Both the position numbers and the translations under genes were made by a program. The notes below the pieces were generated by a model. That model was not told the origin of the DNA. It worked only from the letters and a program-made list of their open reading frames with translations, and ran no database searches. Of a stretch of DNA of 64,000 nt, positions 976 through 52,034 are shown one piece after another; the stretch's first letter is position 1, and every line of letters begins with the position of its first letter. The DNA is taken from NCBI GenBank assembly GCA_038063735.1, contig JBBTUN010000002.1, forward strand, positions 13,321 to 77,320, written 5' to 3'. The stretch comes from Patescibacteria group bacterium. GTDB lineage: Bacteria; Patescibacteriota; Microgenomatia; Curtissbacterales; GWA2-41-24.

Positions 976-1223
976 TGGTAAAAGAAGACGGAAGAAGTTT
1001 TGGTATTAAGCCGGCATTAGAGTTTGTCAGAAGTAGATTAGGAAAGGCAAATCCAGTTGCGGCTTCTGTTGAAGGGCCGGAGTTGACGGAAGAAGAGCAA
1101 AGGGAACTTTGTCTCTCGGGAATTCCGGGGACAGCTGCGCATGCCAGGGCAGCGCAAAAACTTGTGGATTCTTTCGATCAGGTTGAATTACATAGAAAGA
1201 GGAGAAAGAAAGGAGGGAAATAG
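975..1223 (+). CDS. hypothetical basic protein
   Basis: 82-aa ORF, start overlaps the previous stop. Confidence 0.3.
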   Translation: MVKEDGRSFGIKPALEFVRSRLGKANPVAASVEGPELTEEEQRELCLSGIPGTAAHARAAQKLVDSFDQVELHRKRRKKGGK

Positions 1224-1676: not shown

Positions 1677-2547
1677 ATTAAAGGTTAAAGTTGGGGGCCC
1701 ATCCTTCGCTTCATCCTACGCTAAGGCTACGGATGACAAGAAAGCTATGGAGGGCAAGGAAATTTTAAAAGGTGTTGACCTGGAGGTTGGTGCCGGTGAA
1801 GTCCATGTGGTGATGGGGCCGAATGGGAGTGGAAAAAGTACGCTGGCGCAGGTGATAGCAGGGAACCCAATGTACAAAGTTCACAGTGGACAGATCACGG
1901 TTGACGGTAAAAACATAATTAAATTAAGTCCGGATAAAAGGGCGAAGCTGGGGATATTTTTGGGTTTCCAGAACCCGATTGAAATTCCGGGCGTTAGTGT
2001 TTTCAACGTAATTAGGAAGGCAAGTCAATCTCAAGTGGGTCCTGCCAGTAGTTTCCCTCCCGTCAGTGCTCAATTGAAAACAAAATCCGTGCGTAATGGT
2101 AAATCGAGTGTCAATCTGCGCGCTGCCGGAAGCCCTTCCACTACTGTCACCCAGTTTCGTCAAGATCTTTTAAAATATGCATCTTCTTTAAAATTATCAT
2201 CCGATCATCTTTCCAGATCTTTTAATGAAGGGTTTTCCGGTGGGGAAAAAAAGAGAAATGAGATTTTGCAGATGCTGGCACTGTCGCCAAAACTTGTAAT
2301 TTTGGATGAGATAGATAGTGGGTTGGATGTGGATGGATTGAAGCTGGTAGCCGGTGCTATCAAGAAATTCTCAATTCTCAATTCTCAATCCTCAATTATC
2401 CTTATTACCCACTATGCCCGCATCCTTAAATACATCAAGGCAGATTTTGTGCATGTGATGACTGATGGGAAAATTGTTAAATCCGGAAAGCAAAAATTGG
2501 CAACGGAAATTGAGGAGAAAGGATACCAGTTCGTTAATAGTTTATAG
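1657..2547 (+). CDS. sufC: Fe-S cluster assembly ATPase SufC, with two in-frame repeat insertions
   Basis: Walker A GPNGSGKST, ABC signature FSGGEKKR, Walker B LVILDEIDSGLD and C-terminal IILITHYARIL...GYQF, typical of SufC. Start chosen at MNLKINKLKV (SufC-like MLxIxNLHV); the ORF-track start at 1588 looks like an upstream extension. Extra segments at about 1692-1739 and 2030-2160 are absent from canonical SufC. Confidence 0.85.
   Translation: MNLKINKLKVKVGGPSFASSYAKATDDKKAMEGKEILKGVDLEVGAGEVHVVMGPNGSGKSTLAQVIAGNPMYKVHSGQITVDGKNIIKLSPDKRAKLGIFLGFQNPIEIPGVSVFNVIRKASQSQVGPASSFPPVSAQLKTKSVRNGKSSVNLRAAGSPSTTVTQFRQDLLKYASSLKLSSDHLSRSFNEGFSGGEKKRNEILQMLALSPKLVILDEIDSGLDVDGLKLVAGAIKKFSILNSQSSIILITHYARILKYIKADFVHVMTDGKIVKSGKQKLATEIEEKGYQFVNSL
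1692..1739 (+). repeat. family-B in-frame element (encodes GGPSFASSYAKATDDKK) in sufC
   Basis: gggggcccatccttcgcttcatcctacgctaaggctacggatgacaag; related to 7667-7702 and 55275-55350. Confidence 0.6.
2113..2155 (+). repeat. family-A in-frame element (encodes NLRAAGSPSTTVTQ) in sufC
   Basis: aatctgcgcgctgccggaagcccttccactactgtcacccag; about 80% identical to 50494-50540. Confidence 0.7.
2375..2400 (+). repeat. CTCAATT/CTCAATC tandem tract in sufC (encodes FSILNSQSSII)
   Basis: ctcaattctcaattctcaatcctcaatt. Confidence 0.6.
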
Positions 2548-4487: not shown

Positions 4488-4907
4488 ATGGAAACTGAAA
4501 GACCAAGAAACGTAATAAATTTTAAAGAATCAGTTAGAATTCTCAAAAAGCGGCAGGTGAGAAAGAGGGTTAACTTTGATTTACATAGGACGGTGAAATT
4601 ACATGCGTTTTTAAGTGATCGATTGGGTGATGAACATGAACTGACTAGCACCTTCATGCCCCCAAAGTCACTAAAACCAAGATTTGATTTGCTAGTCACG
4701 AGACGAGGAATAGATCAGATTGCCAGGATGTTACTTGATGAACAAGATGCCAATGTCAGGAAATCTGTTGGAGAATCTTTGATCGGGTTGGATTATGCAT
4801 TTACCGGGGTCAGTGGATATCCGTGGGGTAATGTTGCATACGAAGCATTTATTGCAGAACACTATGAAGATATTAGTAGGCAAGAGGCTTTAGATATTGT
4901 TCAATGA
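4488..4907 (+). CDS. hypothetical protein (cassette 1 between sufB and sufD)
   Basis: 139-aa ORF starting 1 nt after the sufB stop; followed by repeat copy R1. Confidence 0.45.
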   Translation: METERPRNVINFKESVRILKKRQVRKRVNFDLHRTVKLHAFLSDRLGDEHELTSTFMPPKSLKPRFDLLVTRRGIDQIARMLLDEQDANVRKSVGESLIGLDYAFTGVSGYPWGNVAYEAFIAEHYEDISRQEALDIVQ

Positions 4908-4950
4908 ACCATATTATTTTACAAAAAGACGAAAAGAGGTTAAATGGGGG
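4903..4950 (+). repeat. direct repeat R1 (copy of the sufD 5' leader)
   Basis: caATGAACCATATTATTTTACAAAAAGACGAAAAGAGGTTaaatggggg; 40/40 identical to R3 over the core. Confidence 0.8.
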
Positions 4951-5363
4951 CTGAAGATTTGATCGCTCAAGCGGAGAGAGCTGCATACCATGAAGACTAC
5001 CGGAATTTCCGAGTTCGATTAGAGACTGAAACGTTTTTGGCAGTACATGGTTTATTAAAAGTCGATAAAATTTTAGAAGAAACTGATCTTCATAACAGAC
5101 AATTGTCTTTAGGAGAAGGACTTTTTACTATGCTGGCAGACAGGTTTAGAGACGCAATGCGCAAGGCGGAAGATCATGGTACGGAAACAATTGAAGTCGA
5201 TTTAAGCTACAGGGAATTGAATACGTTAGGAGATGTAGCAGTAGTCAAGGGAAATGCTGCTTTGGCACCTTATGTCTTAAACTTGAATGGGGCGTTTGTT
5301 GCTGCGGGTGGGCGCGATAATCAAAGACTGAGAGCGTATTTTGAAATGCTTACAGGGATATGA
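4944..5363 (+). CDS. hypothetical protein (cassette 2)
   Basis: 139-aa ORF; its start ATGGGGG lies immediately after repeat copy R1, which carries the RBS AAGAGG. Confidence 0.45.
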   Translation: MGAEDLIAQAERAAYHEDYRNFRVRLETETFLAVHGLLKVDKILEETDLHNRQLSLGEGLFTMLADRFRDAMRKAEDHGTETIEVDLSYRELNTLGDVAVVKGNAALAPYVLNLNGAFVAAGGRDNQRLRAYFEMLTGI

Positions 5364-5390
5364 ACCAGATTATTTTACAAAAAGACGGAC
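5361..5390 (+). repeat. direct repeat R2 (degenerate copy)
   Basis: tgaaccagattattttacaaaaagacggac. Confidence 0.7.
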
Positions 5391-5429
5391 TTAAATTCGG
5401 GTCTTTGGCTCGGAGGGGAGGATGGTAGG

Positions 5430-5990
5430 ATGAACGAGATTTTAGCGACCGCTGACTTTACAGACGAGGTTTTTGATGATGTTTATTTAAATTATTTATC
5501 GGATGCGGCGATTGCACATTTGGTGTTTGGTGTCGAAAGCGTATTAAGGTTAAATCAAGAAGCAGAGCCTAGGCTTGATTTTAACTTAAAACCAGCTCAT
5601 CCACTATTTGAGTATGACATTATGAGTAAATCTAGGCCGGATTGGCAGGATTGGAAACAAGTGCTTTTGCATCACGAAAGTTATAGTCAAATTTCCAAGT
5701 CGATGGAAGAAACCATTGGTTCTCCACCATATGCTTTTGGTTATTTAAAAGGAAAATTGCTTTTGTTAACTGCGAAAGATGCGGATACGATTAAATATGG
5801 CACGAGTTTATTTTGGGCATACTTAGATGGTGATTGTGAAGTTTCGGAAGACGGGGAATATATAAAAAGACTGATGCAACTATCGAGGGGAGTTTCTCCG
5901 GAATTTCATTATAGGCATGATATTCCTGTAGAAGACAAACAAGGTGGGGGAAAGTGGAGATCATTACTAAGAAGGATCAAAGGTAGCTAA
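5430..5990 (+). CDS. hypothetical protein (cassette 3)
   Basis: 186-aa ORF, RBS ggaggggaggatggtaggATG; followed by repeat copy R3. Confidence 0.45.
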   Translation: MNEILATADFTDEVFDDVYLNYLSDAAIAHLVFGVESVLRLNQEAEPRLDFNLKPAHPLFEYDIMSKSRPDWQDWKQVLLHHESYSQISKSMEETIGSPPYAFGYLKGKLLLLTAKDADTIKYGTSLFWAYLDGDCEVSEDGEYIKRLMQLSRGVSPEFHYRHDIPVEDKQGGGKWRSLLRRIKGS

Positions 5991-6044
5991 TCAATGAACC
6001 ATATTATTTTACAAAAAGACGAAAAGAGGTTGATTGGGATAATG
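5991..6044 (+). repeat. direct repeat R3 (sufD 5' leader)
   Basis: caatgaaccatattattttacaaaaagacgaaaagaggttgattgggataATG. Confidence 0.8.
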
Positions 6045-6614
6045 CTAGGAGACGATAAACCCGGTCATCCTGAACTTGGTTCAGAATCTAGATCCCGAAA
6101 CCCTTCGACTTCGCTCAGGGCGAGCAAGTTCGGGATGACAGAAGGGCGATTGGATGTTGTTCTTGCCGGAGAAAATTCGGAAATTGAGGTTGTAGGATTA
6201 CTAATGGCCAAAGGCGAAAGCCAAACGGCGCTGGAAGTTTACATAACCCACGTGGGGGAAAACACGAAATCAAAGGTTAATGTTAGGGCGGTTTTGCGGG
6301 GAAAATCAACGTTTGCATTTCGGGGGAATGTCAAAATAGAAAAAGGTGCAAAGGGTGCGGATGCATATTTGCGGAGTGATGCGCTTTTGTTTGACGATGC
6401 CAAAATGGGCGACGATACGCCGGCACTGGAGATTTTAGAGAGGGATGTAAAAGCCGGGCATGCGGCGACGATTGGAAAAGTGGATGAGCAAATGTTGTTT
6501 TATTTAATGAGCAGGGGAATTACAAGGAAACAAGCGGAAAAGCTGTTAATTCAGGGATTTGTGGAGCTAATACGATCAAAGCTTAACGACGAACGACTAA
6601 GGACAAAAGCATGA
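6042..6614 (+). CDS. sufD: SufD-like protein, short form (C-terminal SufBD domain only)
   Basis: C-terminal ...[36 protein letters not shown] matches the SufB/SufD C-terminus. Start placed at the ATG following GAGG in the repeat leader; the ORF track starts at 5994 inside the repeat. Carries an in-frame family-C element at 6065-6140. Confidence 0.6.
   Translation: MLGDDKPGHPELGSESRSRNPSTSLRASKFGMTEGRLDVVLAGENSEIEVVGLLMAKGESQTALEVYITHVGENTKSKVNVRAVLRGKSTFAFRGNVKIEKGAKGADAYLRSDALLFDDAKMGDDTPALEILERDVKAGHAATIGKVDEQMLFYLMSRGITRKQAEKLLIQGFVELIRSKLNDERLRTKA
6065..6140 (+). repeat. family-C double-hairpin element with a nested family-B-like core, in-frame in sufD
   Basis: catcctgaacttggttcagaatctagatcccgaaac[ccttcgacttcgctcagggcgagc]aagttcgggatgac; compare 9021-9075. 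Confidence 0.6.
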
Positions 6615-6979
6615 GCGGGAAAGGATATTTTAGATTTGAAAAACTTGATGTTTGGATTGATGCAAGACAGTTTGTATCTTTAATATACAAAGTCACAGAA
6701 GATTTCCCTGCAAAGGAGAGATTCGGATTAATCGATCAGATTAGAAGAGCAGCAGTTTCGATTGCTTTAAACATTGCGGAAGGTTCGACTAAAAATTCTG
6801 ACCCGGATTTTAGAAGGTTCTTGAGAATGTCTCAAGGTTCTGTGAATGAAGTTGTTACAGCACTTTATATTGCTTTGGATCAAAAGTTTATTAAAGAGGG
6901 AAAATTTGATGAACTATATGAATTTACATTAAGGTTAAATGCAAGGCTAAATGCACTAATAAAAAGCATTAGTCATTAG
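6611..6979 (+). CDS. four-helix-bundle protein (23S rRNA intervening-sequence protein family)
   Basis: FEKLDVW..A..F...IYK.T..FP..E.FGL..QIRRAA.SI..NIAEG is the signature of this family. Confidence 0.7.
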   Translation: MSGKGYFRFEKLDVWIDARQFVSLIYKVTEDFPAKERFGLIDQIRRAAVSIALNIAEGSTKNSDPDFRRFLRMSQGSVNEVVTALYIALDQKFIKEGKFDELYEFTLRLNARLNALIKSISH

Positions 6980-7633: not shown

Positions 7634-8876
7634 GCAAGATTTTCCAATATTGAATCGGAAAATAAATGGTCCCTCCTATGCTAAAGCTTCGGAGGGCAAG
7701 AAACCTTTGGTTTATCTGGACAGTGCGGCGACGTCTCAGAAGCCAAAGCAAGTTCTTAACGCAATTTCCGACTATTACCAAAAACATAACGCCAATGTGC
7801 ATCGGGGAATCCACACTTTATCTGTGGAGGCAACGGAAATGTACGAAGCGGCACGGAAGAAGGTAGCTGATTTTGTTGGTGTAAAAGATCCGGCGGAGAT
7901 TATTTTTGTGAGAAATGCTACCGAGGCGATCAATCTGGTTGCTTATTCTTGGGGTCGGTTCAACATATCAAAAGGTGATGAAATTGTAGTGACTGTCGCA
8001 GAGCACCACAGCAATTTTGTGCCGTGGCAGCAACTGGCAATCCAGAAGCAGGCAAAATTTAAAGTAGTTCCCATCAATAAAGAAACCGGTGAGATTGATC
8101 TTAAGGCGCTTGGTAAATTACTGACAAAGAAAACGAAAATAGTCGCTTTTGCCCATGTTTCTAATGTTTTAGGGACGATTAACGATGTTTTGCATTTGTC
8201 GTTAGTCGTTCGTCGTTTGGCGCCACAAGCAATAGTACTTGTGGATGGTGCCCAAGCTGTTCCGCATATGCCTGTTGATATTTCTGAAATCGGTTGCGAT
8301 TTTTATGTTTTTACCGGACACAAAATGCTGGGGCCAACCGGAATTGGGGTTTTGTGGGGAAGGCGGGAGCTTTTGGAGACGATGACACCATTTTTATTTG
8401 GGGGAGAAATGATTTCCAAAGTTTCTCTAGAAAAATCCACTTGGAACGAATTGCCGTGGAAGTTTGAAGCGGGAACCCCGGATATTGCGGGGGCGATTGG
8501 ATTAGGAGCGGCGGTTGATTATCTTGATAAAATTGGCATGGATAAGGTTCGGGAGCACGATGTAGAACTAACAAAATATGCGATTGAAAAGTTATCAAAA
8601 ATTGATGGTGTGATTATATATGGACCGAAAGATGTCAAAAAGCGCAGCGGAGTGGTTGCATTTAATGTTGGGTCAATACACGCCCATGATGTGGCATCGA
8701 TTTTGGATAGTGAGGGGATTGCTGTCCGGTCCGGTCACCACTGCGCCCAACCACTCATGGATTTTTTGGGAGTTTCGTCTGTTGCGAGAGCCAGTTTTTA
8801 TCTATATAACTCCATTGAAGAAGTGGATAGGTTAGTGGAGGGTGTTTTGAAAGTTAAGGAGGTTTTTAAAATATAA
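7623..8876 (+). CDS. sufS: cysteine desulfurase SufS (class V aminotransferase)
   Basis: Motifs ...VYLDSAATSQKP, the PLP-lysine region FYVFTGHKMLGPTGIGVLWG and the active-site region RSGHHCAQPLM are typical of group II SufS. N-terminal GPSYAKASEGKK is an inserted repeat-encoded segment. Confidence 0.9.
   Translation: MNRRQDFPILNRKINGPSYAKASEGKKPLVYLDSAATSQKPKQVLNAISDYYQKHNANVHRGIHTLSVEATEMYEAARKKVADFVGVKDPAEIIFVRNATEAINLVAYSWGRFNISKGDEIVVTVAEHHSNFVPWQQLAIQKQAKFKVVPINKETGEIDLKALGKLLTKKTKIVAFAHVSNVLGTINDVLHLSLVVRRLAPQAIVLVDGAQAVPHMPVDISEIGCDFYVFTGHKMLGPTGIGVLWGRRELLETMTPFLFGGEMISKVSLEKSTWNELPWKFEAGTPDIAGAIGLGAAVDYLDKIGMDKVREHDVELTKYAIEKLSKIDGVIIYGPKDVKKRSGVVAFNVGSIHAHDVASILDSEGIAVRSGHHCAQPLMDFLGVSSVARASFYLYNSIEEVDRLVEGVLKVKEVFKI
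7667..7702 (+). repeat. family-B in-frame element (encodes GPSYAKASEGKK) in sufS
   Basis: ggtccctcctatgctaaagcttcggagggcaagaaa; CCCTCC...GGAGGG arms. Confidence 0.55.
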
Positions 8877-9311
8877 GTGGATCTTTACCGCGAGGAAATT
8901 TTGGAACATTGGCAAAACCCGTTAAATTTTGGGGAAATGAAAAATGCCGATTTAGTGATTGAACAGGTTAACCCGCTTTGCGGAGACGAAGTGACGTTTT
9001 ACTTTAGGTTTTCGATCAGTCATCCTGAACTCGATTCAGGATCTAAAAAGATTCCGAAACAAGTTCGGAATGACGAGTGGCAAATAGCGAATGGTCAGTG
9101 GCGAATAAGTGAAGTATCGTTTACCGGTTCTGGCTGTGCTATATCTATCGCTTCGGCTTCGATTTTGTCGGAAAATATCAAGAATAAGAAAATCTCTACG
9201 TTATCCAAAATAACGGGTGAGGATGTTTTGAAATTGATTGGCGGACCAGTGGCACCGGCAAGACTTAAGTGTGCTTTTTTGTCGCTTGAGGTGATTCGCA
9301 AAATTCGATAA
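8877..9311 (+). CDS. sufU: SufU/IscU-like Fe-S scaffold protein (GTG start)
   Basis: NP.N.G.......V...NPLCGDEV and GSGCAIS..SAS with a C-terminal ...KCA.L motif are characteristic of SufU; contains the in-frame family-C element. Confidence 0.75.
   Translation: MDLYREEILEHWQNPLNFGEMKNADLVIEQVNPLCGDEVTFYFRFSISHPELDSGSKKIPKQVRNDEWQIANGQWRISEVSFTGSGCAISIASASILSENIKNKKISTLSKITGEDVLKLIGGPVAPARLKCAFLSLEVIRKIR
9021..9075 (+). repeat. family-C double-hairpin element in-frame in sufU
   Basis: cATCCTGAActcgaTTCAGGATctaaaaagaTTCCGAAacaagTTCGGAAtgac: two perfect 8-bp/7-bp hairpins. Confidence 0.65.
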
Positions 9312-21697: not shown

Positions 21698-22212
21698 CTG
21701 TTAAATTTATCTACAATTTGTTTTAGCACTTCTTCTTCGGGCTTGTTCGTAGTGTCGATTTGCAGATTAAAAAACTTTGGATCGAGGTAATCTTCGTTTG
21801 AATACAGTTTTTTAAATTTAGCGTCCAGCCCAACTTCGCGTTTTTTGATTTCTTCTACCGTTTCCGCGTGGGTATGGTGTCTGGCGAGGGCCCTTTTAAA
21901 TCTTTCTTTGTCCTCGCACTTTAACAGAACTTTTAGGACTTCCGGATTATCTTTGGTAAAGTAGCCCAGATAATGGGCGTCGATAACCCAGCCACCGCTT
22001 TTGGCAAGCTCTGCTAGTTTGGCATCAGCCTCTTGGTCTACATTATCCGGAATTTGAGCTTTATCATAGAGGGGAATATTGTGCTCGAGAGCGTATTTAC
22101 GGAAGAAATCGCCCGCAGATTCGTATTTAAGATTGAGTTTTTGAGCCACATTCTTTGCAGCAGTAGATGTGCCTGAGGCTATTTGGCCGGAAATGACGAT
22201 GGAGCGATACAT
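21694..22212 (-). CDS. archaeal-type cytidylate (CMP) kinase / P-loop NMP kinase
   Basis: P-loop ISGQIASGTST at the N-terminus (start at MYRSIV), about 170 aa, characteristic of short CMP kinases. Confidence 0.5.
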   Translation of the reverse strand: MYRSIVISGQIASGTSTAAKNVAQKLNLKYESAGDFFRKYALEHNIPLYDKAQIPDNVDQEADAKLAELAKSGGWVIDAHYLGYFTKDNPEVLKVLLKCEDKERFKRALARHHTHAETVEEIKKREVGLDAKFKKLYSNEDYLDPKFFNLQIDTTNKPEEEVLKQIVDKFNS

Positions 22213-29065: not shown

Positions 29066-30604
29066 TTAATACGAGCTGGAGTGATCGAGCACGTCTAAGA
29101 CTTCACCTGTTGTGTCATCGGTTAAAACATTTATTATAGTTAGCCTGTTTTCTGTTATCCATTCTCTTATTTTTGGGTCGTAAATTATTTCATGAGTAAT
29201 ACTATCGTTGTTACTTGAGGCTCTTTTTCTTGCTTTCTTATCCTTTTTAAAGGCTTCACCACTTATTGAGTTACTGATGTAGACGATTCTGGGTCTTTCC
29301 ATGTCTACGCCTACTTTGTCCATAACTCCGTATTCTATCTTTATTTGTTCGATTGCGTCTGCGGCGTCTGCGGCTGTGCTGCCAAACGCTTGTTTGGTAT
29401 CAAATTTCCCAATGTATTCTCCGCGTATAGAAATACCCATGTAGCCTTCGGAGTGGGATGAAAATGGATGATTTGGGCCACCAGCAGGTATTTCGCTTAA
29501 TCCTGTTAGGTACTGAAAAGCGACTGATTCGGCAATCAAAAACCTTAATGCTTGGGTTTGTCCATCGGTCAAGTCAGGGTAAACATTTTCTATATGGGTG
29601 CTTATTTCATTGTAGAAATCTTTTGAGGCTTCGTTTGTGAGTAAGAATTCCATTATGTCGACCTTTTTTTCAGCAAAATCCAGAAGTAGATTAGCATCGG
29701 TAAAGTTTTGGTTAAATTCCCCGTATGTGATATCCAGCTGGGTAGCTATGGTTTCCTTATATTTATTTGTTAGGTTGGTAGCTGCCAGATCGTCGTGACC
29801 ATCTTCTCTGAGGGTTACCCCCATTGTGGCGGTGTCGTAAAGCGCACCTATCGCTATTGTTGGAAGCCCATCTTTACCTACTGTTTCTCTAACTTTGTTG
29901 TAATACTGGGTAAATGCGGGAACACTTGTTTTCCTGAGTATAATTAGGTTGGCGTCTTCTGCTCTTTGGGTGTGATTAATCTTTGAAAAATCATCGAAGG
30001 TTAATTCTCCTTGATTTGCTGGAGACATATTGTCTTTAATTACACCTAGAATTGCTGCGTTTGCCGCACAACCATGACGGGGATCCGTAGAGTCGTAGTG
30101 GGCGAACACTACCTCAAGTAGCTCTCGGTCTTCGATTGCGTCATTTTTGATGTGCCCTCTGAGTTCGGGTGAATCTGGAATAAATCGGCCGTCGGAGGTT
30201 TTTTTAACTTTGATTGATCCAAGAGGTACTTCCCAGATGTCAACAAGAACGCCCATTGCCATTCCATCGAGTCTACCGTCTACGCACCAAACTGCACCAA
30301 GTTCCGTCTTTCCCCGTAATTTCTCTTTTCTTTCTTTTAGGTGTTGGAATTTTTCGCTGCTTAAGGTTTCGGAAATTGTATTTATCCTTTGTATGTTTTC
30401 CCAAACCCTGCGTTCGACACCACTGATTTCGTTGTCCTCATGTTTGTGGCCATTTTCTGTGAGGGGTAAGTGGTAAAAATTCTGGATGGCGATAGAAGTT
30501 TTCTTTTTTAATAATTGATTTTTATTTGAAGCTGTTTCTGGATTTGGTTGTCTCATTTCGGTTTTTGGATCAAAATCGGTTATTAGTAATTTCTCTGAAA
30601 TCAT
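29066..30604 (-). CDS. hypothetical protein, 512 aa
   Basis: Long uninterrupted ORF, RBS GAGGA; no recognised domain. Confidence 0.5.
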   Translation of the reverse strand: MISEKLLITDFDPKTEMRQPNPETASNKNQLLKKKTSIAIQNFYHLPLTENGHKHEDNEISGVERRVWENIQRINTISETLSSEKFQHLKERKEKLRGKTELGAVWCVDGRLDGMAMGVLVDIWEVPLGSIKVKKTSDGRFIPDSPELRGHIKNDAIEDRELLEVVFAHYDSTDPRHGCAANAAILGVIKDNMSPANQGELTFDDFSKINHTQRAEDANLIILRKTSVPAFTQYYNKVRETVGKDGLPTIAIGALYDTATMGVTLREDGHDDLAATNLTNKYKETIATQLDITYGEFNQNFTDANLLLDFAEKKVDIMEFLLTNEASKDFYNEISTHIENVYPDLTDGQTQALRFLIAESVAFQYLTGLSEIPAGGPNHPFSSHSEGYMGISIRGEYIGKFDTKQAFGSTAADAADAIEQIKIEYGVMDKVGVDMERPRIVYISNSISGEAFKKDKKARKRASSNNDSITHEIIYDPKIREWITENRLTIINVLTDDTTGEVLDVLDHSSSY

Positions 30605-38588: not shown

Positions 38589-39605
38589 TTGGGCATGAGT
38601 TCTCCAAAAATTCTTCTGTTAATTGATGGGAATAATCTTTTCCATCGTGCGTATCATGCCTTGCCTGCATTAACTGACAAAACGGGTGAGAATGCCAACG
38701 CCGTTTTTGGATTTTCTAATATGCTGATTAGGGCAGTAAAGGAGGTCGAACCTACTTATATCGCCTGTGCATTTGATACCAAGGCGCCAACATTCCGCCA
38801 TGTAGAATTTGAGGCTTATAAAGCGCAAAGAAAAGCCCCGCCGGAGGATTTATATCCACAGCTGCCAAAAGTTAAGGCAGTATTGGATGCTTTTGGTGTT
38901 AAATATTTTGAAAAAGCGGGTTATGAAGCAGACGACATACTCGCGACTGTAGCGTCGCGAGCAGTTAATAGTTCACAGTTAATAGTTCACGGTAAGAAAA
39001 ATGAGAAAACTGTGAACCCCTCTGGAATCGGGGTAAACCGTGAACCGTCTACTGTTGACCAAGTGGTGATTCTTTCCGGCGACCGTGACCTACTTCAACT
39101 CGTTGATGGAAATATCAAGGTTCAGGCGCCCGGGTGGAACCTGAGCTCAACCACATTATATGGTTCAAAAGAGGTGGAAGAAAAGTTTGGAATCACACCC
39201 CTTCAAATGGTCGATTATAAGGCGATGATCGGAGACCCGAGTGATAACATTCCGGGGATTGCCGGCATTGGACCAAAAACGGCCTCGGCATTACTTCAAA
39301 AATACAAAACACTTGAGGGAATTTATGACAATATTGATGAAATTTCGGGAACAACAAAAGATAAGTTGGAAAAGGATAAAGAAATTGCCCTGGCTGCTAA
39401 AAAACTTGTTAAGCTGGATTGTAATGTAGATATTAGCTTTAAGCTGTCAGAGCTTAGATTTAATCCGGATTGGGAAAAAGTAATAAAAGAATTTGAAGGC
39501 TTGGGGTTTAAAAGTATTGTTGCTAAATTGCAAGGTAAAGCAGTGGGCAATGCAAAATCTGTACATGTTGCTGATAATAATAAAGACCAGCTTGAGTTAA
39601 TTTAA
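38589..39605 (+). CDS. 5'-3' exonuclease (DNA polymerase I N-terminal/FEN-like domain) with in-frame repeat insertion
   Basis: ILLLIDGNNLFHRAYHA..., acidic catalytic residues and the H3TH region GIPGIAGIGPKTA; about 30 extra residues encoded by the family-D element at 38962-39056. Confidence 0.8.
   Translation: MGMSSPKILLLIDGNNLFHRAYHALPALTDKTGENANAVFGFSNMLIRAVKEVEPTYIACAFDTKAPTFRHVEFEAYKAQRKAPPEDLYPQLPKVKAVLDAFGVKYFEKAGYEADDILATVASRAVNSSQLIVHGKKNEKTVNPSGIGVNREPSTVDQVVILSGDRDLLQLVDGNIKVQAPGWNLSSTTLYGSKEVEEKFGITPLQMVDYKAMIGDPSDNIPGIAGIGPKTASALLQKYKTLEGIYDNIDEISGTTKDKLEKDKEIALAAKKLVKLDCNVDISFKLSELRFNPDWEKVIKEFEGLGFKSIVAKLQGKAVGNAKSVHVADNNKDQLELI
38962..39056 (+). repeat. family-D nested-hairpin element in-frame in the 5'-3' exonuclease gene
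   Basis: GTTCACAGTTaatagttcacggtaagaaaaatgagaaAACTGTGAACccctctggaatcggggtaaaccgtgaaccgtc: 10-bp and 8-bp inverted repeats. Confidence 0.65.
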
Positions 39606-40286: not shown

Positions 40287-41482
40287 AAGTAGCTCTAGTC
40301 CATGATTATTTAAACGAGTTTGGGGGTGCGGAGAGGGTGCTACTAGCATTGTCGGAGATTTATCCGGACGCGCCGATTTATACGGCTTTTTACCAGGAGG
40401 GATCTTCGGCTTACAAAAGGTTTAAAGGAAAAAAAATAATTACTTCCTGGGCACAGAATGTGCCATTTTTTGCAAGTAAATTACATAGTCCATTACGGTT
40501 TTTGGCCCCGTTTATTTGGAACAGTTTTGTCCACCAGCTGGCGGATTACGATGTGGTGATTGGTTCGAGTAGCTGGTACGTAACGAAGGGGTTCAAACGT
40601 ATCAAAAGTATCAAAGGTAACAAAAGTTTCGTTGAGATTTGTTATTGCCATACTCCGCCAAGGTATTTGTATGGATATCCTACTGCTTCAAATTTACAAA
40701 AGCATTTTTTGGTTAGGGTATATGCACTTTTGGTTAACCATTTTATGCGAGTTTATGATTTTGAGGCGGCGCAACGCGTTGACTGGTTTATTGCCAATTC
40801 CAAAGAGGTTGCAGGTAGGGTTAAGAAGTTTTATCGAAGAGAATCCACGGTGATTTATCCACCGGTGGATGTAAAAAAGTTCACAGTTAATAGTTCACAG
40901 TTAATAGTTAATAAAAATACTATGAACCATGAACCGTCAACTAATTACTTTCTGGTTGTTTCCCGGCTTGTGGCGGCGAAAAATGTAGACATTGCAGTGG
41001 AAGTTTGTACAAATTTGAAATTGCCTTTGAAAATAGTTGGAACGGGTAAGGAGATGCAAGCTCTTAAGGAGCTAGCAAGTTCACAGTCCTCAGTGAACGG
41101 TGAACAGTCAACAATTGAGTTTCTCGGTGATGTTAGTGATAGTGAACTGGTTGAGCTTTATCAAAATTGTCGTTCCTTAATTTTTTCCGGGAGCCAGGAA
41201 GATTTTGGGATTGTGCCGGTTGAGGCAATGGCCGCGGGTAAGCCTGTCATTGCTTTAGCGGAGGGCGGAATCAAGGAGACTGTAATTGATGGTAAAACCG
41301 GGCTTTGGGTAGAGGATTTGGCGCCGGGCGCATTTGTCATTGCCATTAATAAATTTTTGGAAATGGAGAAAAAGGGGCAGTGGGATAGCGAATTTATCCG
41401 CAAACACGCCCAAAAATTCAGCAAGGAACGTTTTAAGCGCGAAATTAAGAAATTTGTGGAAAGTAAGCACAAAAAAGCTTGA
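40283..41482 (+). CDS. glycosyltransferase family 4 (GT-B)
   Basis: C-terminal EDFGIVPVEAMAAGKPVIA (E..7E-like) with preceding Rossmann-like segments; start overlaps the HAD stop. Confidence 0.8.
   Translation: MKVALVHDYLNEFGGAERVLLALSEIYPDAPIYTAFYQEGSSAYKRFKGKKIITSWAQNVPFFASKLHSPLRFLAPFIWNSFVHQLADYDVVIGSSSWYVTKGFKRIKSIKGNKSFVEICYCHTPPRYLYGYPTASNLQKHFLVRVYALLVNHFMRVYDFEAAQRVDWFIANSKEVAGRVKKFYRRESTVIYPPVDVKKFTVNSSQLIVNKNTMNHEPSTNYFLVVSRLVAAKNVDIAVEVCTNLKLPLKIVGTGKEMQALKELASSQSSVNGEQSTIEFLGDVSDSELVELYQNCRSLIFSGSQEDFGIVPVEAMAAGKPVIALAEGGIKETVIDGKTGLWVEDLAPGAFVIAINKFLEMEKKGQWDSEFIRKHAQKFSKERFKREIKKFVESKHKKA
40596..40628 (+). repeat. GTATCAAA tandem units in-frame in the GT4 gene (encodes KRIKSIKGNK)
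   Basis: acgtatcaaaagtatcaaaggtaacaaaag; same unit as 62765-62805. Confidence 0.55.
40879..40945 (+). repeat. family-D element in-frame in the GT4 gene
   Basis: ttcacagttaatagttcacagttaatagttaataaaaatactatgaaccatgaaccgtcaactaat. Confidence 0.65.
41078..41112 (+). repeat. family-D short hairpin in-frame in the GT4 gene
   Basis: aGTTCACagtcctcaGTGAACggtgaacagtcaac. Confidence 0.5.
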
Positions 41483-43038: not shown

Positions 43039-43950
43039 ATGCCTGAATTACCCGAAGTAACGGTTGTAGTTAATAGTTTGAATAATGCAATAAAGGGCTT
43101 AACTTTTGATTCAGTTGAATACGACTGGAAGCCGAAGTTTTATTGGAATGGATTTTCGATAAAAGATTTAAAAGGGGCAAAAGTAAAGGATGTCCGTAGG
43201 TGGGGGAAAGTGATTGTAATTGATCTAGAGACAAGCAAAAAGCAAAAAGCAAAAAGTAGAGGTATGTCGATAGTTATCCACCTTAAATTGACCGGGCAGC
43301 TGGTCTATCAGGACAAAAGGATAAGGGTGGGCGGTGGACATCCTATTCCGCCTCTTAATAAACCTGTTCCAAATGGTACTACCCGGGCTACTTTTGCTTT
43401 TACAAATGGAGGACATTTGTATTTTAACGACATGCGTAAGTTTGGATGGGTAAAGATAGTTGCAAGCGATGAGCGATCTATAAAGGACGCTATCGGAAAG
43501 ATTGAGCTGGGGCCAGACCCAATGACGATGAAATTTGAAGAATTTCGCCAAAGGCTAAAGGCCAAAGGCCAAAGGCGGATAAAACAATTATTAATGGATC
43601 AGGCTTTTGTTGCCGGAGTTGGCAATATTTACAGTGATGAAGCTTTGTGGCGTGCTAAGGTGCACCCAAAAAGGTCTGTTGTGAGTTTAACTGATGCTGA
43701 AATAAAGGCAATATTTAAAGGTTTGATTGACAGTTTTAATTTGGCTATAGAAAAAGGCGGATCTAGCGCTAATTCTTTTGTAGATGGTCGAGGCGAAAAA
43801 GGACTCTATCTTAGTTTTGCAAATGCTTATCATATGACCGGTACGCCATGTAAGCGCTGCAAAACACCAATTGTGCGCGAAAAAATGGATGGCAGGAGTG
43901 CACACTACTGTCCAAATTGTCAAAAGTTGCAACAGCAACTGTTGGTATAG
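43039..43950 (+). CDS. fpg: formamidopyrimidine-DNA glycosylase (Fpg/Nei family)
   Basis: N-terminal MPELPEV catalytic Pro2/Glu3, H2TH region, and C-terminal zinc finger C.RC......GRS...CP.CQ. Confidence 0.8.
   Translation: MPELPEVTVVVNSLNNAIKGLTFDSVEYDWKPKFYWNGFSIKDLKGAKVKDVRRWGKVIVIDLETSKKQKAKSRGMSIVIHLKLTGQLVYQDKRIRVGGGHPIPPLNKPVPNGTTRATFAFTNGGHLYFNDMRKFGWVKIVASDERSIKDAIGKIELGPDPMTMKFEEFRQRLKAKGQRRIKQLLMDQAFVAGVGNIYSDEALWRAKVHPKRSVVSLTDAEIKAIFKGLIDSFNLAIEKGGSSANSFVDGRGEKGLYLSFANAYHMTGTPCKRCKTPIVREKMDGRSAHYCPNCQKLQQQLLV
43231..43258 (+). repeat. AAGCAAAA tandem units in-frame in fpg (encodes KKQKAKS)
   Basis: aaagcaaaaagcaaaaagcaaaaagtag; compare 49921-49944. Confidence 0.55.
43555..43575 (+). 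repeat. AAGGCC tandem in fpg
   Basis: aaggccaaaggccaaaggcgg. Confidence 0.45.
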
Positions 43951-45304: not shown

Positions 45305-46468
45305 ATGCGCATAGATTCTCTTAAGCTTACGAACTACCGGAATTTTACTGCTCAGAAGATATCGTTTGACGGAAAACTCACAGCGATTGTGGGTAAAAAC
45401 GGTGCCGGTAAAAGCAATATTTTAGAGGCTGTCGCTATGCTATCCGGAATTAGGCCGATAAGGGTAGAAACGGATTTGGATTTAGTCCGTTTTGGGGCAG
45501 AAAGTGCCAAAGTTGAAGGGGAAATTTCTTCTGAGGGTGACACCAAAAGTTTAATAGTTAACCTACAAGTTATAGATAGGCGAGTTGGTAAGTCTTTTTA
45601 TATAGGTGCATTTAAAAAGAGGCTCGTGGATTTTGTGGAAGTTTTTTCTATAGTTGTTTTCGAGCCAAGTGATTTAGATTTGGTTTCCGGTTCTCCGTCT
45701 TTGCGTCGTCGTCACCTGGACAGGTTTTTATCATCCATTGACGGTAAATACTGGAGAAGTGTCAGCGCTTATGGAAAGATTGTGACGAGAAGAAATAAGA
45801 TTTTGGGAAGAATTGGAGAAGGCAGGGCGAAACCTTTGGAGCTTGGTTTTTGGGACTCACGCCTCTTGGAGCACGGAAAGTATGTTTCGAAAGTGCGTGA
45901 GGAGTTTTTTGAGTTTTTGAATTTTGTCGAAGCGGTTAATGACTCGGGTCCTGTCAGTTCTTTCCTTCCCACTCCTTCGATCGTCTCAGGACAAGCAGTG
46001 CAGCGCGTTTATCCTGAGCGAAGTCGAAGGGCTGTCGGGAACCCTTCTAGAACTGCCACCCGCGAAAATATTAGCGGATTTTTCTGGAACTTAAAGCAGA
46101 GTGTTTTAACTGAGGAGAAGCTCAAGAATAATAGAGAGCGCGATATTGCAGCAGGCATTACGCTTTCTGGCCCGCATCGCGATGATTTCAGATTTGTTCA
46201 CAAAAAACGCGATTTGGAGTTTTTCGGTTCTCGCGGGCAGCAGCGTATGGCAGTTTTGGCACTAAAGCTTGCAGAGCTTGAGTACCACCGTGTCAAGCGC
46301 GGGCAACGGCCGGTACTAGCGCTGGATGATATTTTTTCGGAATTGGATTGGGAGCACAGGAATACTGTTTTGTCGGTAATATCAAATCAACAAACAATTA
46401 TTACGGCAGCGGAAAAAGAATCCATCCCGAGGGAAATTTTCAAAAAGGCAAAGATTGTGGAACTGTAA
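45305..46468 (+). CDS. recF: DNA replication/repair protein RecF, with in-frame repeat insertion
   Basis: MRIDSLKLTNYRNF......F.....AIVGKNGAGKSNILEA and C-terminal ...LDDIFSELD; about 40 extra residues at 45960-46080 encoded by the family-A element. Confidence 0.75.
   Translation: MRIDSLKLTNYRNFTAQKISFDGKLTAIVGKNGAGKSNILEAVAMLSGIRPIRVETDLDLVRFGAESAKVEGEISSEGDTKSLIVNLQVIDRRVGKSFYIGAFKKRLVDFVEVFSIVVFEPSDLDLVSGSPSLRRRHLDRFLSSIDGKYWRSVSAYGKIVTRRNKILGRIGEGRAKPLELGFWDSRLLEHGKYVSKVREEFFEFLNFVEAVNDSGPVSSFLPTPSIVSGQAVQRVYPERSRRAVGNPSRTATRENISGFFWNLKQSVLTEEKLKNNRERDIAAGITLSGPHRDDFRFVHKKRDLEFFGSRGQQRMAVLALKLAELEYHRVKRGQRPVLALDDIFSELDWEHRNTVLSVISNQQTIITAAEKESIPREIFKKAKIVEL
46029..46068 (+). repeat. family-A in-frame element (encodes RRAVGNPSRTATRE) in recF
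   Basis: gggctgtcgggaacccttctagaactgccacccgcgaaaa. Confidence 0.65.
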
Positions 46469-48111: not shown

Positions 48112-49179
48112 ATGTACTCCCCGAAATATCGAGTTTCAAATTTAATTTTAAAATATATCGGTAAGATAGAAGCCTCAAAGGAAGTTATCGAAAACGCACC
48201 ACTAGTGCCTGCGTACGAAGCTAAATTTCGACAGGAAGCGATAATCAGGACTGTCCATCACGGAACACATATAGAAGGCAATCCATTGGATAGCGGTGAG
48301 GTGGCTGCAGTACTCGAGGGTGGTAATGTTCCGGCTCGTGATCGTGATGTCCAGGAAATTTTAAATTATCGGGAAGTACTAAAGTACATTGATAAAACTC
48401 AAAACTCGAAACTCAAAATTCCAAATTTTAGCGAGAAAGATATTCTTACAATTCACAAATTAACGGTCGATAAAGTTTTGTCTGCTGCGACCGCAGGTAC
48501 ATATCGTCTAAATCAGGTTGTTGTTAAAAATTCTAAAACTGGAGAGATTAGTTTTAAACCTCCCGAGGCGAACAAAGTTAAAAAACTGGTAGGGGATTTT
48601 TTGGATTGGTTAAACGGAAAAGAAGCCAGCGATGTGCATCCGGTTCTAAAGGCAGGAATTACCCATTATGTTTTGGCTTTTATACATCCGTTTGTGGACG
48701 GAAACGGAAGGGCGTCACGTGCTTTTGCGACTTTGGTTTTGTTTCGTGGGGGTTATGATATTAAAAAGTTCTTTTCGATAGAAGAATATTTTGATAGGGA
48801 CTCTAAAAGATATTACGAAACTTTGCAGAGTGTTTCAAACCAAAAGGTGAATAGTCTATCTGAGCGGGATTTAACAGGTTGGCTTGAATATTTTTGTGAG
48901 GGAGTGGCGGAAGAGCTGGAGAGAGTCAAACAAAGAGTGCAAAAATTGTCACTGGATACAAAATTGAAAGGGAGAACGGGGCAGATAGTGCTTAACGAGA
49001 GGCAGGTAAAGCTTGTTGAGTATATCGAGGCTAATGGGTCTATTAATAATAAACAGTGGAGGGTTATTTTGCGTGATTTTTCCGATGACACAATTTTGCG
49101 GGATTTGAAGGATTTGCAGAAGAAAAAACTGGTAAAAAAGAAGGGGTCTACAAAGGGGGCCGTTTACGTACTGAGATGA
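48112..49179 (+). CDS. Fic-family protein (AMPylation fold) with C-terminal winged-helix domain
   Basis: Fic motif HPFVDGNGRASR (HPF.[DE]GNGR) and a C-terminal basic wHTH-like tail. Confidence 0.75.
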   Translation: MYSPKYRVSNLILKYIGKIEASKEVIENAPLVPAYEAKFRQEAIIRTVHHGTHIEGNPLDSGEVAAVLEGGNVPARDRDVQEILNYREVLKYIDKTQNSKLKIPNFSEKDILTIHKLTVDKVLSAATAGTYRLNQVVVKNSKTGEISFKPPEANKVKKLVGDFLDWLNGKEASDVHPVLKAGITHYVLAFIHPFVDGNGRASRAFATLVLFRGGYDIKKFFSIEEYFDRDSKRYYETLQSVSNQKVNSLSERDLTGWLEYFCEGVAEELERVKQRVQKLSLDTKLKGRTGQIVLNERQVKLVEYIEANGSINNKQWRVILRDFSDDTILRDLKDLQKKKLVKKKGSTKGAVYVLR

Positions 49180-51867: not shown

Positions 51868-52034
51868 GTGCAGATTATATTCTTGGCTATAGTATTTTTC
51901 AATTTAGCCCCTCGATGCTTCGGGCAACAGGAAACCTTAAACTAGAAACTTCACTGCGTTTTAACTAAACTATAATTGTCATGCTGAACTTGTTTCAGCA
52001 TCTATAAACTTCCGAGGGATAAGAGCCCTCGGTA

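What the first reader, a model, noticed from the sequence alone, without database searches (positions are those of the whole stretch)
6065..6140. Family C: a two-hairpin element in-frame in sufU and sufD, with a second element nested inside the sufD copy
The sufU copy at 9021-9075 is cATCCTGAA ctcga TTCAGGAT ... TTCCGAA acaag TTCGGAA tgac, two perfect short hairpins encoding SHPELDSGSKKIPKQVRND. The sufD copy at 6065-6140 has the same outer structure (catcctgaac...ttcaga / atcccgaaac...gttcgggatgac). The loop of its second hairpin is expanded by a 24-nt GC-rich block, cccttcgacttcgctcagggcgagc, which resembles family B. The encoded peptide becomes GHPELGSESRSRNPSTSLRASKFGMTEG. This is an element inserted into an element. 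The first hairpin also occurs alone in intergenic DNA at 52149-52175. Nested insertions argue for ongoing mobility rather than ancient low-complexity loops.
Basis: seen in the sequence. Interest (0 to 1): 0.8.

Follow-up and report, generated by a model that had tools for sequence, protein, structure and literature searches.

The report
CGTC-tagged hairpin repeats inside suf genes
The two-hairpin inserts in sufU and sufD are real, but they belong to an already described class of small palindromic repeats (CGTC-tagged REPs, relatives of the Rickettsia palindromic elements), here read through as extra protein loops in a tiny groundwater bacterium.

Summary
SufU (9018-9075) and the SufD-like gene (6063-6140) each carry an in-frame pair of 8-bp hairpins. 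A third pair lies in intergenic DNA (51977-52004 and 52148-52175). Each unit reads (C/T)GTC, an AT-started 8-bp stem, a 5-nt loop, the return stem, then C. Units pair head-to-head with the tags outward, and their stems co-vary.

This is the CGTC-tagged REP superfamily (CGTC-2 type) of Di Nocera et al. 2013. That superfamily includes Rickettsia RPE-4/-6 and Neisseria dRS3/NTS, and intragenic copies are already documented. The same unit occurs in many phyla and in viral contigs.

Related genomes show an empty site, the same dimer, or other repeat families at exactly these two protein loops.

The 24-nt block in the sufD copy is absent from orthologous dimers. It sits exactly in the loop (gaaac^aag). 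However, the block-carrying unit is itself a dispersed subfamily with loops of 5+24 or 5+48 nt.

The window holds no transposase or Ssn-type GIY-YIG nuclease. Ongoing mobility is not shown.

Verdict: a new member of a known kind, in a new host phylum (Patescibacteria). Interest is moderate to low.

The parts
5994..6614 (+). SufD-like gene (206 aa) that hosts one dimer near its 5' end
   Evidence: Pfam SUFBD_core E = 1.2e-45, starting at residue 48, right after the insert. Homologues are 160-260 aa.
6063..6090 (+). sufD dimer, left unit: tag GGTC, stem ATCCTGAA/TTCAGAAT (one C.A mismatch), loop CTTGG, tail CTA
   Evidence: Covariance model 31.6 bits, E = 1.8e-6. Orthologues carry ATTCTGAA/TTCAGAAT or ATCCTGAA/TTCAGGAT, so the window copy is a half-compensated intermediate.
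6089..6140 (-). sufD dimer, right (inverted) unit with an expanded loop: stem ATCCCGAA 6092-6099 / TTCGGGAT 6129-6136, loop 6100-6128, tag GACA 6137-6140 (TGTC on the other strand)
   Evidence: Read directly. Aligned with orthologues L128-L132. Same architecture as 26 composite units found in metagenomes.
6102..6125 (+). 24-nt loop module CCTTCGACTTCGCTCAGGGCGAGC ('family B'-like), encoding PSTSLRAS
   Evidence: Absent from the orthologous dimers in L129-L132 and present in L128. It lies exactly between gaaac and aag. The 19-mer 6101-6119 recurs exactly at 46013-46031.
8877..9311 (+). SufU gene (144 aa) that hosts one dimer
   Evidence: Pfam NifU_N in two stretches. In the AlphaFold model the insert region, residues ~49-73, has no secondary structure and block-mean pLDDT 46-50 (below 50 at 65-71); it lies between strands 38-48 and 74-85. 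The core blocks score 91-95.
9018..9045 (+). sufU dimer, left unit: AGTC, ATCCTGAA, CTCGA, TTCAGGAT, CTA
   Evidence: Covariance model 41.9 bits, E = 2.3e-9.
9048..9075 (-). sufU dimer, right (inverted) unit: AAG, ATTCCGAA, ACAAG, TTCGGAAT, GACG (tag CGTC on the other strand)
   Evidence: Covariance model 45 bits, E = 3.2e-10. Orthologue L126 keeps both stems and changes both loops.
51977..52004 (+). Intergenic left unit: TGTC, ATGCTGAA, CTTGT, TTCAGCAT, CTA (stem compensated relative to CCTGAA/TTCAGG)
   Evidence: Covariance model 44.8 bits, E = 3.5e-10.
52012..52032 (.). Small hairpin CCGAGGG...CCCTCGG at one end of the 143-nt spacer of the intergenic pair
   Evidence: DNA fold -14.6 kcal/mol, z = -5.6. 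Structured spacers are described for CGTC dimers (PMC3733652).
52148..52175 (-). Intergenic right (inverted) unit: AAG, ATCCTGAA, TTAAA, TTCAGGAT, GACG. Tags point outward relative to 51977-52004.
   Evidence: Covariance model 41.7 bits on the minus strand.
45974..46031 (.). Inverted repeat of the 'family B' module (arms 45974-45996 and 46013-46031), nested in a ~117-nt in-frame repeat within recF. It shows that the module exists outside CGTC units.
   Evidence: DNA fold.

Best explanation
These are head-to-head dimers of CGTC-tagged REP hairpins of the CGTC-2 type. That type has an 8-bp stem starting with AT, a 5-nt loop, a short tail beginning with C, and partners with different stems.

They are small non-coding, non-autonomous palindromic repeats that act as DNA. 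They have landed in, or been converted into, two tolerant loops of Fe-S assembly proteins of a Microgenomates-group Patescibacteria genome.

The genome is about 93% coding. Copies inside genes can survive only where they keep the frame, contain no stop codon and fall in a dispensable loop. They are then translated as a disordered loop.

The right-hand sufD unit belongs to a loop-expanded subfamily that carries one 24-nt module in its loop.

Inferred, not shown here: the unit's architecture (GTC just 5' of the hairpin foot, C just 3' of it) is the one that Ssn-type single-domain GIY-YIG nucleases bind and cut as single-stranded DNA. Such an enzyme, acting in trans, is the most likely agent that processes these units. 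How new copies are made is unknown, even for the published family.
For: Shown here:
- Unit anatomy, and six units arranged as three outward-tagged pairs.
- Stem covariation without selecting for pairing: 37 of 52 matches are fully complementary (GCT/AGC, TCT/AGA, CCC/GGG, TCC/GGA, GCC/GGC). Orthologous copies differ by compensated T-A versus C-G.
- 81 of 122 left units have an inverted partner within 200 nt, and the two stems differ in 71 of 81.
- C follows the palindrome in 55 of 58 dimers. There is no target duplication (0 of 58).
- Both protein sites are hypervariable among close homologues. The site is empty in 12 of 60 SufU homologues and in many of the 120 SufD homologues. Others carry the same dimer, or peptides typical of other CGTC families (VIPAKAGI, SSPRKRGS, QVRDD). 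Empty and occupied sites are interspersed in a neighbour-joining order.
- The sufD dimer is stop-free in only 1 of 6 frames, the one in use. The sufU dimer is stop-free in 2 of 6.
- The insert is modelled as a low-confidence loop between two strands.
- About 93% of the window is coding.

From the literature:
- Defining features of CGTC REPs, the predominance of HH dimers, heterodimers in CGTC-2, and intragenic copies. These include the CGTC-2 peptide RHSELVSGS in Sulfurovum, and Rickettsia RPE-4/-6 = CGTC-4/-1 (PMC3733652).
- SsnA binds and cuts the NTS (CGTCATTCCCGCGMAVGCGGGAATCYRG) only as ssDNA. The C after the palindrome is critical for binding and the three nt upstream for cutting. Loop identity is dispensable and loop extensions are tolerated (PMC11893778).

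Support for the link to CGTC-2: 94-96-aa GIY-YIG genes lie among CGTC-2-like units in L054 and L105.
Against: - Two of the six units have AGTC or GGTC instead of CGTC or TGTC.
- Tails are CTA or CTT, not the published CCA consensus.
- None of the six units matches the published degenerate SRM search pattern, whereas the NTS control does.
- No Ssn-like gene, RAYT or other transposase is found in the 64-kb window. None is found in the CPR loci held either. The rest of this genome could not be read.
- Only six units are seen in 64 kb, so genome-wide abundance is unknown.
- Translation of the inserts is inferred, not observed.
Confidence: 0.85

Rival explanations
1. GTAG-type REPINs mobilised by a RAYT (IS200/IS605-like tyrosine transposase).
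For: The layout is an inverted doublet of small hairpins with a short spacer. The minimum-energy DNA fold of the sufD copy is one long hairpin that pairs the two outer arms.
Against: - The tag is (C/T)GTC, not GTAG.
- The two units of a pair usually have different stems (71 of 81).
- No Y1 transposase is found in the window.
- The 2013 survey found no RAYT flanked by CGTC units.
Confidence: 0.03
2. Locally generated hairpins: quasi-palindrome correction or slippage in fast-evolving low-complexity loops, with no copying between loci.
For: The same two protein loops vary enormously in length among relatives. Template-switch repair can make imperfect palindromes perfect.
Against: - Near-identical 27-28-nt units occur at unrelated loci in the window and in many phyla, sharing non-paired positions (GTC, loop CTTGT or CTCGA, trailing C).
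- The 19-mer of the loop module occurs exactly twice in the window.
- A near-identical composite unit occurs at other loci (L223, L226, L239).
Confidence: 0.03
3. A selected RNA-level or peptide-level function in the suf genes, for example a translational pause site, an mRNA-stabilising or processing hairpin, or a functional surface loop.
For: Stems are kept in orthologues while loops change. REPs are reported to affect mRNA stability and 3'-end formation in other bacteria (PMC3733652).
Against: - Many close homologues lack any insert, or carry unrelated repeat families at the same codon.
- The same DNA is read in different frames in different genes (HPEL../VILN..; KFGMT/IPKQVRND) and also lies in intergenic DNA.
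- The insert is predicted to be disordered.
Confidence: 0.07

Closest known systems
CGTC-tagged REPs, family CGTC-2 (Di Nocera, De Gregorio & Rocco 2013, PMC3733652)
   Same: - Unpaired (C/T)GTC tag.
- 8-bp stem whose first two pairs are A-T and T-A.
- 5-nt loop and short tail.
- Head-to-head dimers with tags outside and spacers from 1-2 to about 100 bp.
- Partners with different stems.
- Complementary stem variants.
- Copies inside genes.
- No flanking transposase.
- The listed Sulfurovum CGTC-2 peptide RHSELVSGS back-translates to this unit (inference).
   Different: - The host phylum (Patescibacteria/CPR) is not among the five phyla listed in 2013.
- Tails are CTA or CTT rather than CCA.
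- Two in-gene units have A or G before GTC.
- One unit has a 29-nt loop carrying a 24-nt module.
- The published consensus figure could not be read, so the match rests on the described features.
Rickettsia palindromic elements RPE-4 and RPE-6 (equal to CGTC-4 and CGTC-1 according to PMC3733652; the RPE discovery itself, Ogata et al. 2000, is from my own knowledge)
   Same: Small palindromic repeats inserted in frame in housekeeping genes of a reduced, gene-dense genome. They are translated as extra loops and belong to the same CGTC superfamily.
   Different: A different subfamily (stem and loop lengths and sequence) and a different host lineage. The larger RPE-1 type, about 100-150 bp, is a different architecture.
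Neisseria dRS3/NTS and Ssn-related motifs with SsnA GIY-YIG ssDNA nucleases (PMC11893778)
   Same: The plan CGTCAT, stem, loop, stem, ATC. The GTC 5' of the foot and the C 3' of it are the positions critical for cutting and binding. Loop extensions are tolerated. Small GIY-YIG genes lie among CGTC-2-like units in L054 and L105.
   Different: The stem sequence is A+T-richer. The published SRM pattern does not match. No ssn gene is seen in this window. The role in transformation shown for Neisseria is not testable here.
REPIN-RAYT systems (GTAG REPs)
   Same: Inverted doublets of short hairpins. They are non-autonomous and persist in genomes.
   Different: The tag is GTAG. The two REPs are near-identical and fold as one long hairpin. 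A dedicated single-copy RAYT is present.
Cyanobacterial small dispersed repeats (Elhai et al. 2008; from my own knowledge, not checked here)
   Same: Very small palindromic repeats, found nested in one another and occasionally inside genes.
   Different: Different sequences and hosts. No CGTC tag, as far as I recall.

Membership tests
CGTC-tagged REP superfamily (PMC3733652) | Unpaired terminal tag CGTC (TGTC or CCTC allowed) at one end of the hairpin | tested here: met
   CGTC in two units (9072-9075 and 52172-52175, read on the minus strand). TGTC in two (51977-51980 and 6137-6140 minus). AGTC and GGTC in the two left units inside genes. GTC is present in 6 of 6.
CGTC-tagged REP superfamily (PMC3733652) | Stem of 8-9 bp with complementary A and T in first and second position | tested here: met
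   6 of 6 units have 8-bp stems starting AT...AT. One C.A mismatch occurs in the sufD left unit.
CGTC-tagged REP superfamily (PMC3733652) | Loop of 4-5 nt (5 nt in CGTC-2 to CGTC-4) | tested here: met
   Five units have 5-nt loops (CTTGG, CTCGA, ACAAG, CTTGT, TTAAA). The sixth has 5+24 nt.
CGTC-tagged REP superfamily (PMC3733652) | Short unpaired 3-nt tail at the untagged end (consensus CCA) | tested here: inconclusive
   Window tails are CTA (4 units) or CTT (2 units). C is first in 6 of 6 here and in 55 of 58 dimers elsewhere. CCA tails are seen in Sphingomonadales loci.
CGTC-tagged REP superfamily (PMC3733652) | Predominantly head-to-head dimers (tags outside); heterodimers in CGTC-2 | tested here: met
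   All three window pairs have tags outside and different stems. Elsewhere, 81 of 122 units are paired and 71 of 81 pairs are heterodimers.
CGTC-tagged REP superfamily (PMC3733652) | Repeated many times within a genome | tested here: inconclusive
   Six units in 64 kb. The rest of the genome (GCA_964362505.1) could not be fetched.
Ssn-related motif (SRM) / NTS (PMC11893778) | Matches the degenerate pattern HGTCWYN(0-2)YYVSBRHN(0-5)WNVSBRGN(0-2)RNCYNB | tested here: not met
   0 of 6 units match. The NTS control matches.
Ssn-related motif (SRM) / NTS (PMC11893778) | A gene for a small single-domain GIY-YIG (cd10448) nuclease in the genome, often flanked by the motif | tested here: inconclusive
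   None in the window by Pfam or by an HMM built from 120 homologues. The whole genome is not available. Such genes are present next to CGTC-2-like units in L054 and L105.
Ssn-related motif (SRM) / NTS (PMC11893778) | Bound and cut as single-stranded DNA by the cognate Ssn | not testable with these tools
   Biochemical assay needed.
REPIN / GTAG REP with RAYT | GTAG tag and an associated RAYT gene | tested here: not met
   The tag is (C/T)GTC. No Y1 transposase domain is found in about 70 window ORFs.
Classical MITE | Terminal inverted repeats flanked by a direct target-site duplication | tested here: not met
   0 of 58 dimers have even a 2-nt direct duplication. Flanks are YY...RR, that is, inverted.
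Rfam RNA families | Match to any curated covariance model | tested here: not met
   Only three tRNAs reach the gathering score. Nothing meaningful appears at E up to 10 around the elements.

The most novel reading that the evidence does not exclude
Existing CGTC hairpins are themselves the preferred landing or conversion sites for further palindromic modules. The targets would be their loop, at gaaac^aag, and the junction between the two units.

This would explain three things:
- One codon position in orthologous suf genes holds different REP subfamilies in different lineages.
- Loops grow in exact 24-nt steps.
- Occupied sites keep turning over.

If so, gene-dense CPR genomes preserve an in-frame, datable record from which the still unknown copying mechanism of CGTC/Ssn-type repeats could be reconstructed.
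Probability: 0.2. Interest if true: 0.6.

Novelty: new member of a known kind. Interest (0 to 1): 0.33.

Why it matters
The finding extends a published pan-bacterial repeat superfamily (CGTC REPs, Rickettsia RPEs, Neisseria NTS) to Patescibacteria. It shows that in these very compact genomes the repeats sit largely inside essential genes as translated loops.

Practical consequences:
- Insert-bearing CPR proteins will look longer, 'novel' or low-complexity in annotation and structure prediction.
- Alignments and phylogenies should mask these segments.

The orthologous series (empty, dimer, dimer with a 24-nt module, other subfamily) at two fixed codons is a convenient natural system for studying how these repeats turn over. 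The mechanism itself remains unknown, and nothing here is categorically new.

Tried and rejected
- **Rfam.** A gathering-score search of the whole window and permissive searches around the elements gave only tRNAs and noise.
- **Literature search by literal sequence or peptide** (GTCATCCTGAA, TTCAGGATGAC, KQVQHD) returned only unrelated primers. Searches on CPR plus palindromic or in-frame terms found nothing specific. [quoted passage not shown]
- **Autonomous element.** I looked for left and right units flanking a 0.3-4 kb gene. No consistent case emerged.
- **Target-site duplication.** None found.
- **Published SRM pattern.** No match to any window unit. The only window match, at 1110-1138, looks like chance.
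- **Ssn-like genes.** A strict GIY-YIG regex found nothing. A looser regex and an HMM found such genes only in L054 and L105, and none in the window, the CPR loci or the viral loci.
- **CPR Ssn homologues.** The last protein search returned mostly Bacteroidota and no named CPR protein among the best 120. Presence in CPR stays open.
- **Weak covariance-model hits** at 43498-43527, 30139-30177 and 22164-22198 were inspected and not accepted.
- **Pair counts on alignment A2** are circular, because its rows were chosen for pairing. I rely instead.
- **Assembly artefact.** Rejected, because identical proteins come from independent assemblies.

Full report
**1. What is there**

The window comes from a Patescibacteria MAG from Hainich groundwater, 0.1-um fraction (GCA_964362505.1). 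The identical SufU protein is encoded on several independently assembled contigs. The nearest named relatives are Curtissbacteria (Microgenomates group).

ORF 8877-9311 is SufU: Pfam NifU_N, split into two matched stretches. ORF 5994-6614 is a short SufD-like protein: SUFBD_core, starting right after the insert. The two proteins are not paralogues.

**2. Anatomy**

Each unit is about 28 nt. It consists of a 4-nt tag ending in GTC, an 8-bp stem whose first two pairs are A-T and T-A, a 5-nt loop, the return stem, and a short tail starting with C.

| Pair | Left unit (+) | Right unit (-) | Spacing |
|---|---|---|---|
| sufU | 9018-9045 | 9048-9075 | 2 nt apart |
| sufD | 6063-6090 | 6089-6140 | tails overlap by 2 nt |
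| intergenic | 51977-52004 | 52148-52175 | 143-nt spacer |

A covariance model built from units collected elsewhere finds five window units at E = 3e-10 to 2e-6 and nothing else convincing. The sixth unit is the sufD right unit, whose loop is 29 nt.

The intergenic pair lies in the 320-nt gap 51868-52188. Its spacer begins with another small hairpin. The 'lone hairpin' of the finding is therefore the inverted member of a probable third pair.

All three pairs carry their tags on the outside, and the two stems of each pair differ.

**3. More than chance, and constrained as nucleic acid**

The hairpin pattern has 2 exact matches against 0.00 expected in shuffles.

I tested covariation in a way that does not select for pairing. 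I searched all held loci for GTCAT NNN GAA N5 TTC NNN AT and left out the CCT/AGG form used to fetch them. Of 52 matches, 37 have fully complementary triplets, against a chance rate of 1 in 64. Five alternative stems appear.

Orthologous copies tell the same story:
- The sufD left hairpin is ATTCTGAA/TTCAGAAT in four relatives.
- It is ATCCTGAA/TTCAGGAT in a fifth.
- It is ATCCTGAA/TTCAGAAT in the window, a half-compensated intermediate.
- The sufU orthologue keeps both stems while both loops have changed.

The pair statistics are circular, because the rows were chosen for pairing. I do not use them.

**4. Distribution**

My own estimate of the chance expectation for 596 Gb is about 26. The hosts span Sphingomonadales, Bacteroidota, Treponema, Melainabacteria, Elusimicrobiota, Rickettsiales, Gammaproteobacteria, Dehalococcoidales and several CPR groups.

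Features that were not part of the search pattern are shared:
- An inverted partner lies within 200 nt for 81 of 122 units, with spacers mostly 5-120 nt.
- The stems of the two partners differ in 71 of 81 pairs.
- C follows the palindrome in 55 of 58 dimers.
- Flanks are YY...RR.
- There is no direct target duplication (0 of 58).

Most copies are intergenic. About 15 of 141 lie in long open frames, for example in a Nomurabacteria and a Treponema genome.

Sixty IMG/VR viral contigs also carry the unit.

**5. Identity**

Rfam has no matching family.

The literature search led to Di Nocera, De Gregorio and Rocco 2013 (PMC3733652). They define a superfamily of 'CGTC-tagged' REPs with these features:
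- Tag CGTC, often TGTC.
[quoted passage not shown] - Predominantly head-to-head dimers with tags outside.
- Heterodimers in CGTC-2.
- Spacers from 1-2 to about 100 bp, sometimes structured.
- Copies inside genes.
- No dedicated transposase.

Their table of intragenic REPs lists a Sulfurovum CGTC-2 peptide, RHSELVSGS. It also lists the peptides VIPAKAGI, SFPRKRES and DSRFRGND of CGTC-1, and equates Rickettsia RPE-6 and RPE-4 with CGTC-1 and CGTC-4. The HPEL.SGS peptide here is the same reading of the same unit (inference from back-translation).

Feature by feature the window units fit CGTC-2. The exceptions are the tails (CTA or CTT rather than CCA) and two tags with A or G before GTC. CPR bacteria were not among the five phyla listed in 2013.

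**6. What the units probably do**

A 2025 paper (PMC11893778) shows that the Neisseria NTS (CGTCATTCCCGCGMAVGCGGGAATCYRG, equal to dRS3, which the 2013 paper assigns to CGTC-1) is bound and cut by SsnA. SsnA is a 94-aa single-domain GIY-YIG nuclease, and it acts only on single-stranded DNA.

Its findings:
- The C just after the palindrome is critical for binding.
- The three bases upstream are critical for cutting.
- The loop sequence is dispensable, and extensions at the loop position are tolerated.
- ssn genes are often flanked by the motif.

The window units share exactly these critical positions. Two of the genome loci I had fetched (L054, Lutibacter; L105) hold 94-96-aa GIY-YIG genes (PF01541) embedded among CGTC-2-like units.

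The link to an Ssn-type enzyme is nevertheless an inference:
- The published degenerate 'SRM' pattern matches none of the six units.
- Neither Pfam scans of about 70 ORFs nor an HMM from 120 Ssn-like proteins finds such a gene, a RAYT or any transposase in the window.
- How CGTC repeats are copied is unknown, even in the literature.

**7. Why they sit inside genes**

About 93% of the window is coding, so few landing places lie outside genes.

The sufD dimer is free of stop codons in only one of six frames, the one in use. The sufU dimer is free in two of six. This is what a survival filter predicts.

In an AlphaFold model of SufU the core blocks reach pLDDT 91-95. The insert region, residues ~49-73, has no secondary structure and block-mean pLDDT of 46-50 (below 50 at 65-71); it lies between two strands. 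The same DNA is read as HPEL../VILN.. or KFGMT/IPKQVRND in different genes. This argues against a selected peptide.

**8. Empty sites and turnover**

Among the 60 closest SufU homologues, the segment between TFYFKF and FTGSGC ranges from 21 to 82 residues, and 12 are empty. The closest relative (79% identity) has the same dimer. Others carry CGTC-1-type peptides, or a different ~117-nt repeat that also occurs three times in this window.

The SufD site behaves the same way. Many homologues are empty, several have the CGTC-2 dimer, and others have CGTC-1-type dimers. Occupied and empty sites are interspersed in a neighbour-joining order of the core domain. That tree is a rough one.

Both suf inserts are shared with a relative at about 80% protein identity, from a single sample. 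They are therefore old. Turnover over evolutionary time is clear, but ongoing mobility is not shown.

**9. The 'nested element'**

DNA alignment of six orthologous sufD dimers shows that the window and its closest relative carry 24 extra bases. These lie exactly between gaaac and aag of the loop of the right unit. Four relatives have the plain 5-nt loop.

The first 19 bases of the block recur exactly at 46013-46031. There they form one arm of an inverted repeat nested inside another in-frame repeat in recF.

A metagenome scan for the block followed by the 3' arm returned 63 stretches in 52 distinct contexts. Twenty-six of these are complete right-hand units with the block in the loop. Loop lengths cluster at 28-30 nt (18 units) and 51-57 nt (4 units), that is 5 nt plus one or two 24-nt modules.

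Near-identical composites lie at other loci. One is on a different contig from the same aquifer, read in the same frame (L226). Others carry the alternative CCTGAA stem (L239) or a different left partner (L223). B-like blocks also sit in the loops of units in Lutibacter and another genome.

The block-in-loop unit is thus a dispersed subfamily. The sufD difference may reflect an insertion, a replacement or conversion by such a unit, or a deletion. I cannot tell which.

**10. Verdict**

The element, however, belongs to a published superfamily whose intragenic occurrence is already documented, classically in Rickettsia.

What is new is modest:
- The host phylum.
- The two suf loops as recurrent sites with subfamily turnover.
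- The quantised 24-nt loop module.

I rate it a new member of a known kind, of moderate to low interest.

Noticed in passing
window 2036-2152 (SufC-like ABC ATPase), 45945-46061 (recF), 50417-50533 (ATP-dependent DNA ligase): A second in-frame repeat of about 117 nt ('family A'). It has conserved ends GGGTCCTGYCA...TGYCACCC and a variable centre. A long-range 7-bp helix co-varies between copies: CAGTAGT/ACTACTG, CAGTTCT/AGAACTG, CACGATT/AATCGTG. Its peptide (GPV..F.P...AVGNPS) also fills the SufU loop in other genomes (P0005, P0056, P0034, P0090). It was not matched to any known family.
   Followed up: partly
window 4901-4948, 5357-5404, 5991-6038: The first ~30-45 nt of sufD (ATGAACCA.ATTATTTTACAAAAAGACG...) occur three times. 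The first two copies are short dead-end remnants. Each is followed by an unannotated ORF (4944-5363, 139 aa; 5430-5990, 186 aa). In relative L132, sufB is followed directly by sufD. This looks like repeated insertion of small gene cassettes at the sufD start, each with duplication of the target.
   Followed up: partly
window 6611-6979 and 49176-49580: Two genes of the '23S rRNA intervening sequence protein' family (PF05635, bAvd-like). The first lies between sufD and the Rieske gene and is absent from that position in relatives L128 and L130. It therefore behaves as a mobile small gene.
   Followed up: partly
window 7671-7696 (SufS, peptide NGPSYAKASEGKKP): Another short in-frame hairpin, CCCTCC-14 nt-GGAGGG, near the N-terminus of the cysteine desulfurase. 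It has a different repeat type.
   Followed up: no
window 1876-1911, 38961-38996, 40876-40911, 41076-41111: A GTTCACAGT/GTTAATAGT-type short tandem motif recurs inside several genes (SufC-like, 5'-3' exonuclease, glycosyltransferase). The exonuclease Pfam match is split into two stretches.
   Followed up: no
L030, L042, L044, L086, L090, L117, L124 (genome loci), just upstream of left units: One to three tandem 'half units' (GTCATCCTGAAC plus about 9 G-poor bases, period about 21 nt) precede the complete hairpin. In L117 they are read in frame (VILNNQS VILNNQS VILNSIQDL). This may be a trace of how copies arise.
   Followed up: no
L054 858-1139 (-) and L105 6455-6742 (-): Small single-domain GIY-YIG genes (94-96 aa, PF01541) lie embedded among CGTC-2-like units and other GTCAT-tagged hairpins. 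Homologues at 65-67% identity occur in Flavobacteriia, Sphingomonadales, Sulfurimonas and Bipolaricaulota, which suggests horizontal spread.
   Followed up: partly
L150, L153, L172 (IMG/VR viral contigs): Four to seven copies of the unit per ~13 kb, all on one strand and interleaved head-to-tail with other GTCAT-tagged hairpins. This arrangement is unlike the head-to-head dimers of cellular genomes. No Ssn-like gene is found there.
   Followed up: partly
L217 and L220 (metagenome loci): Two tandem 24-nt modules (CCTTCG..T.C.CTCAGG......) lie inside one hairpin loop. The module length is always a multiple of three.
   Followed up: partly
window 1110-1138: The only window match to the published SRM pattern (TGTCTCTCGGGAATTCCGGGGACAGCTGC). 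It is probably chance.
   Followed up: no
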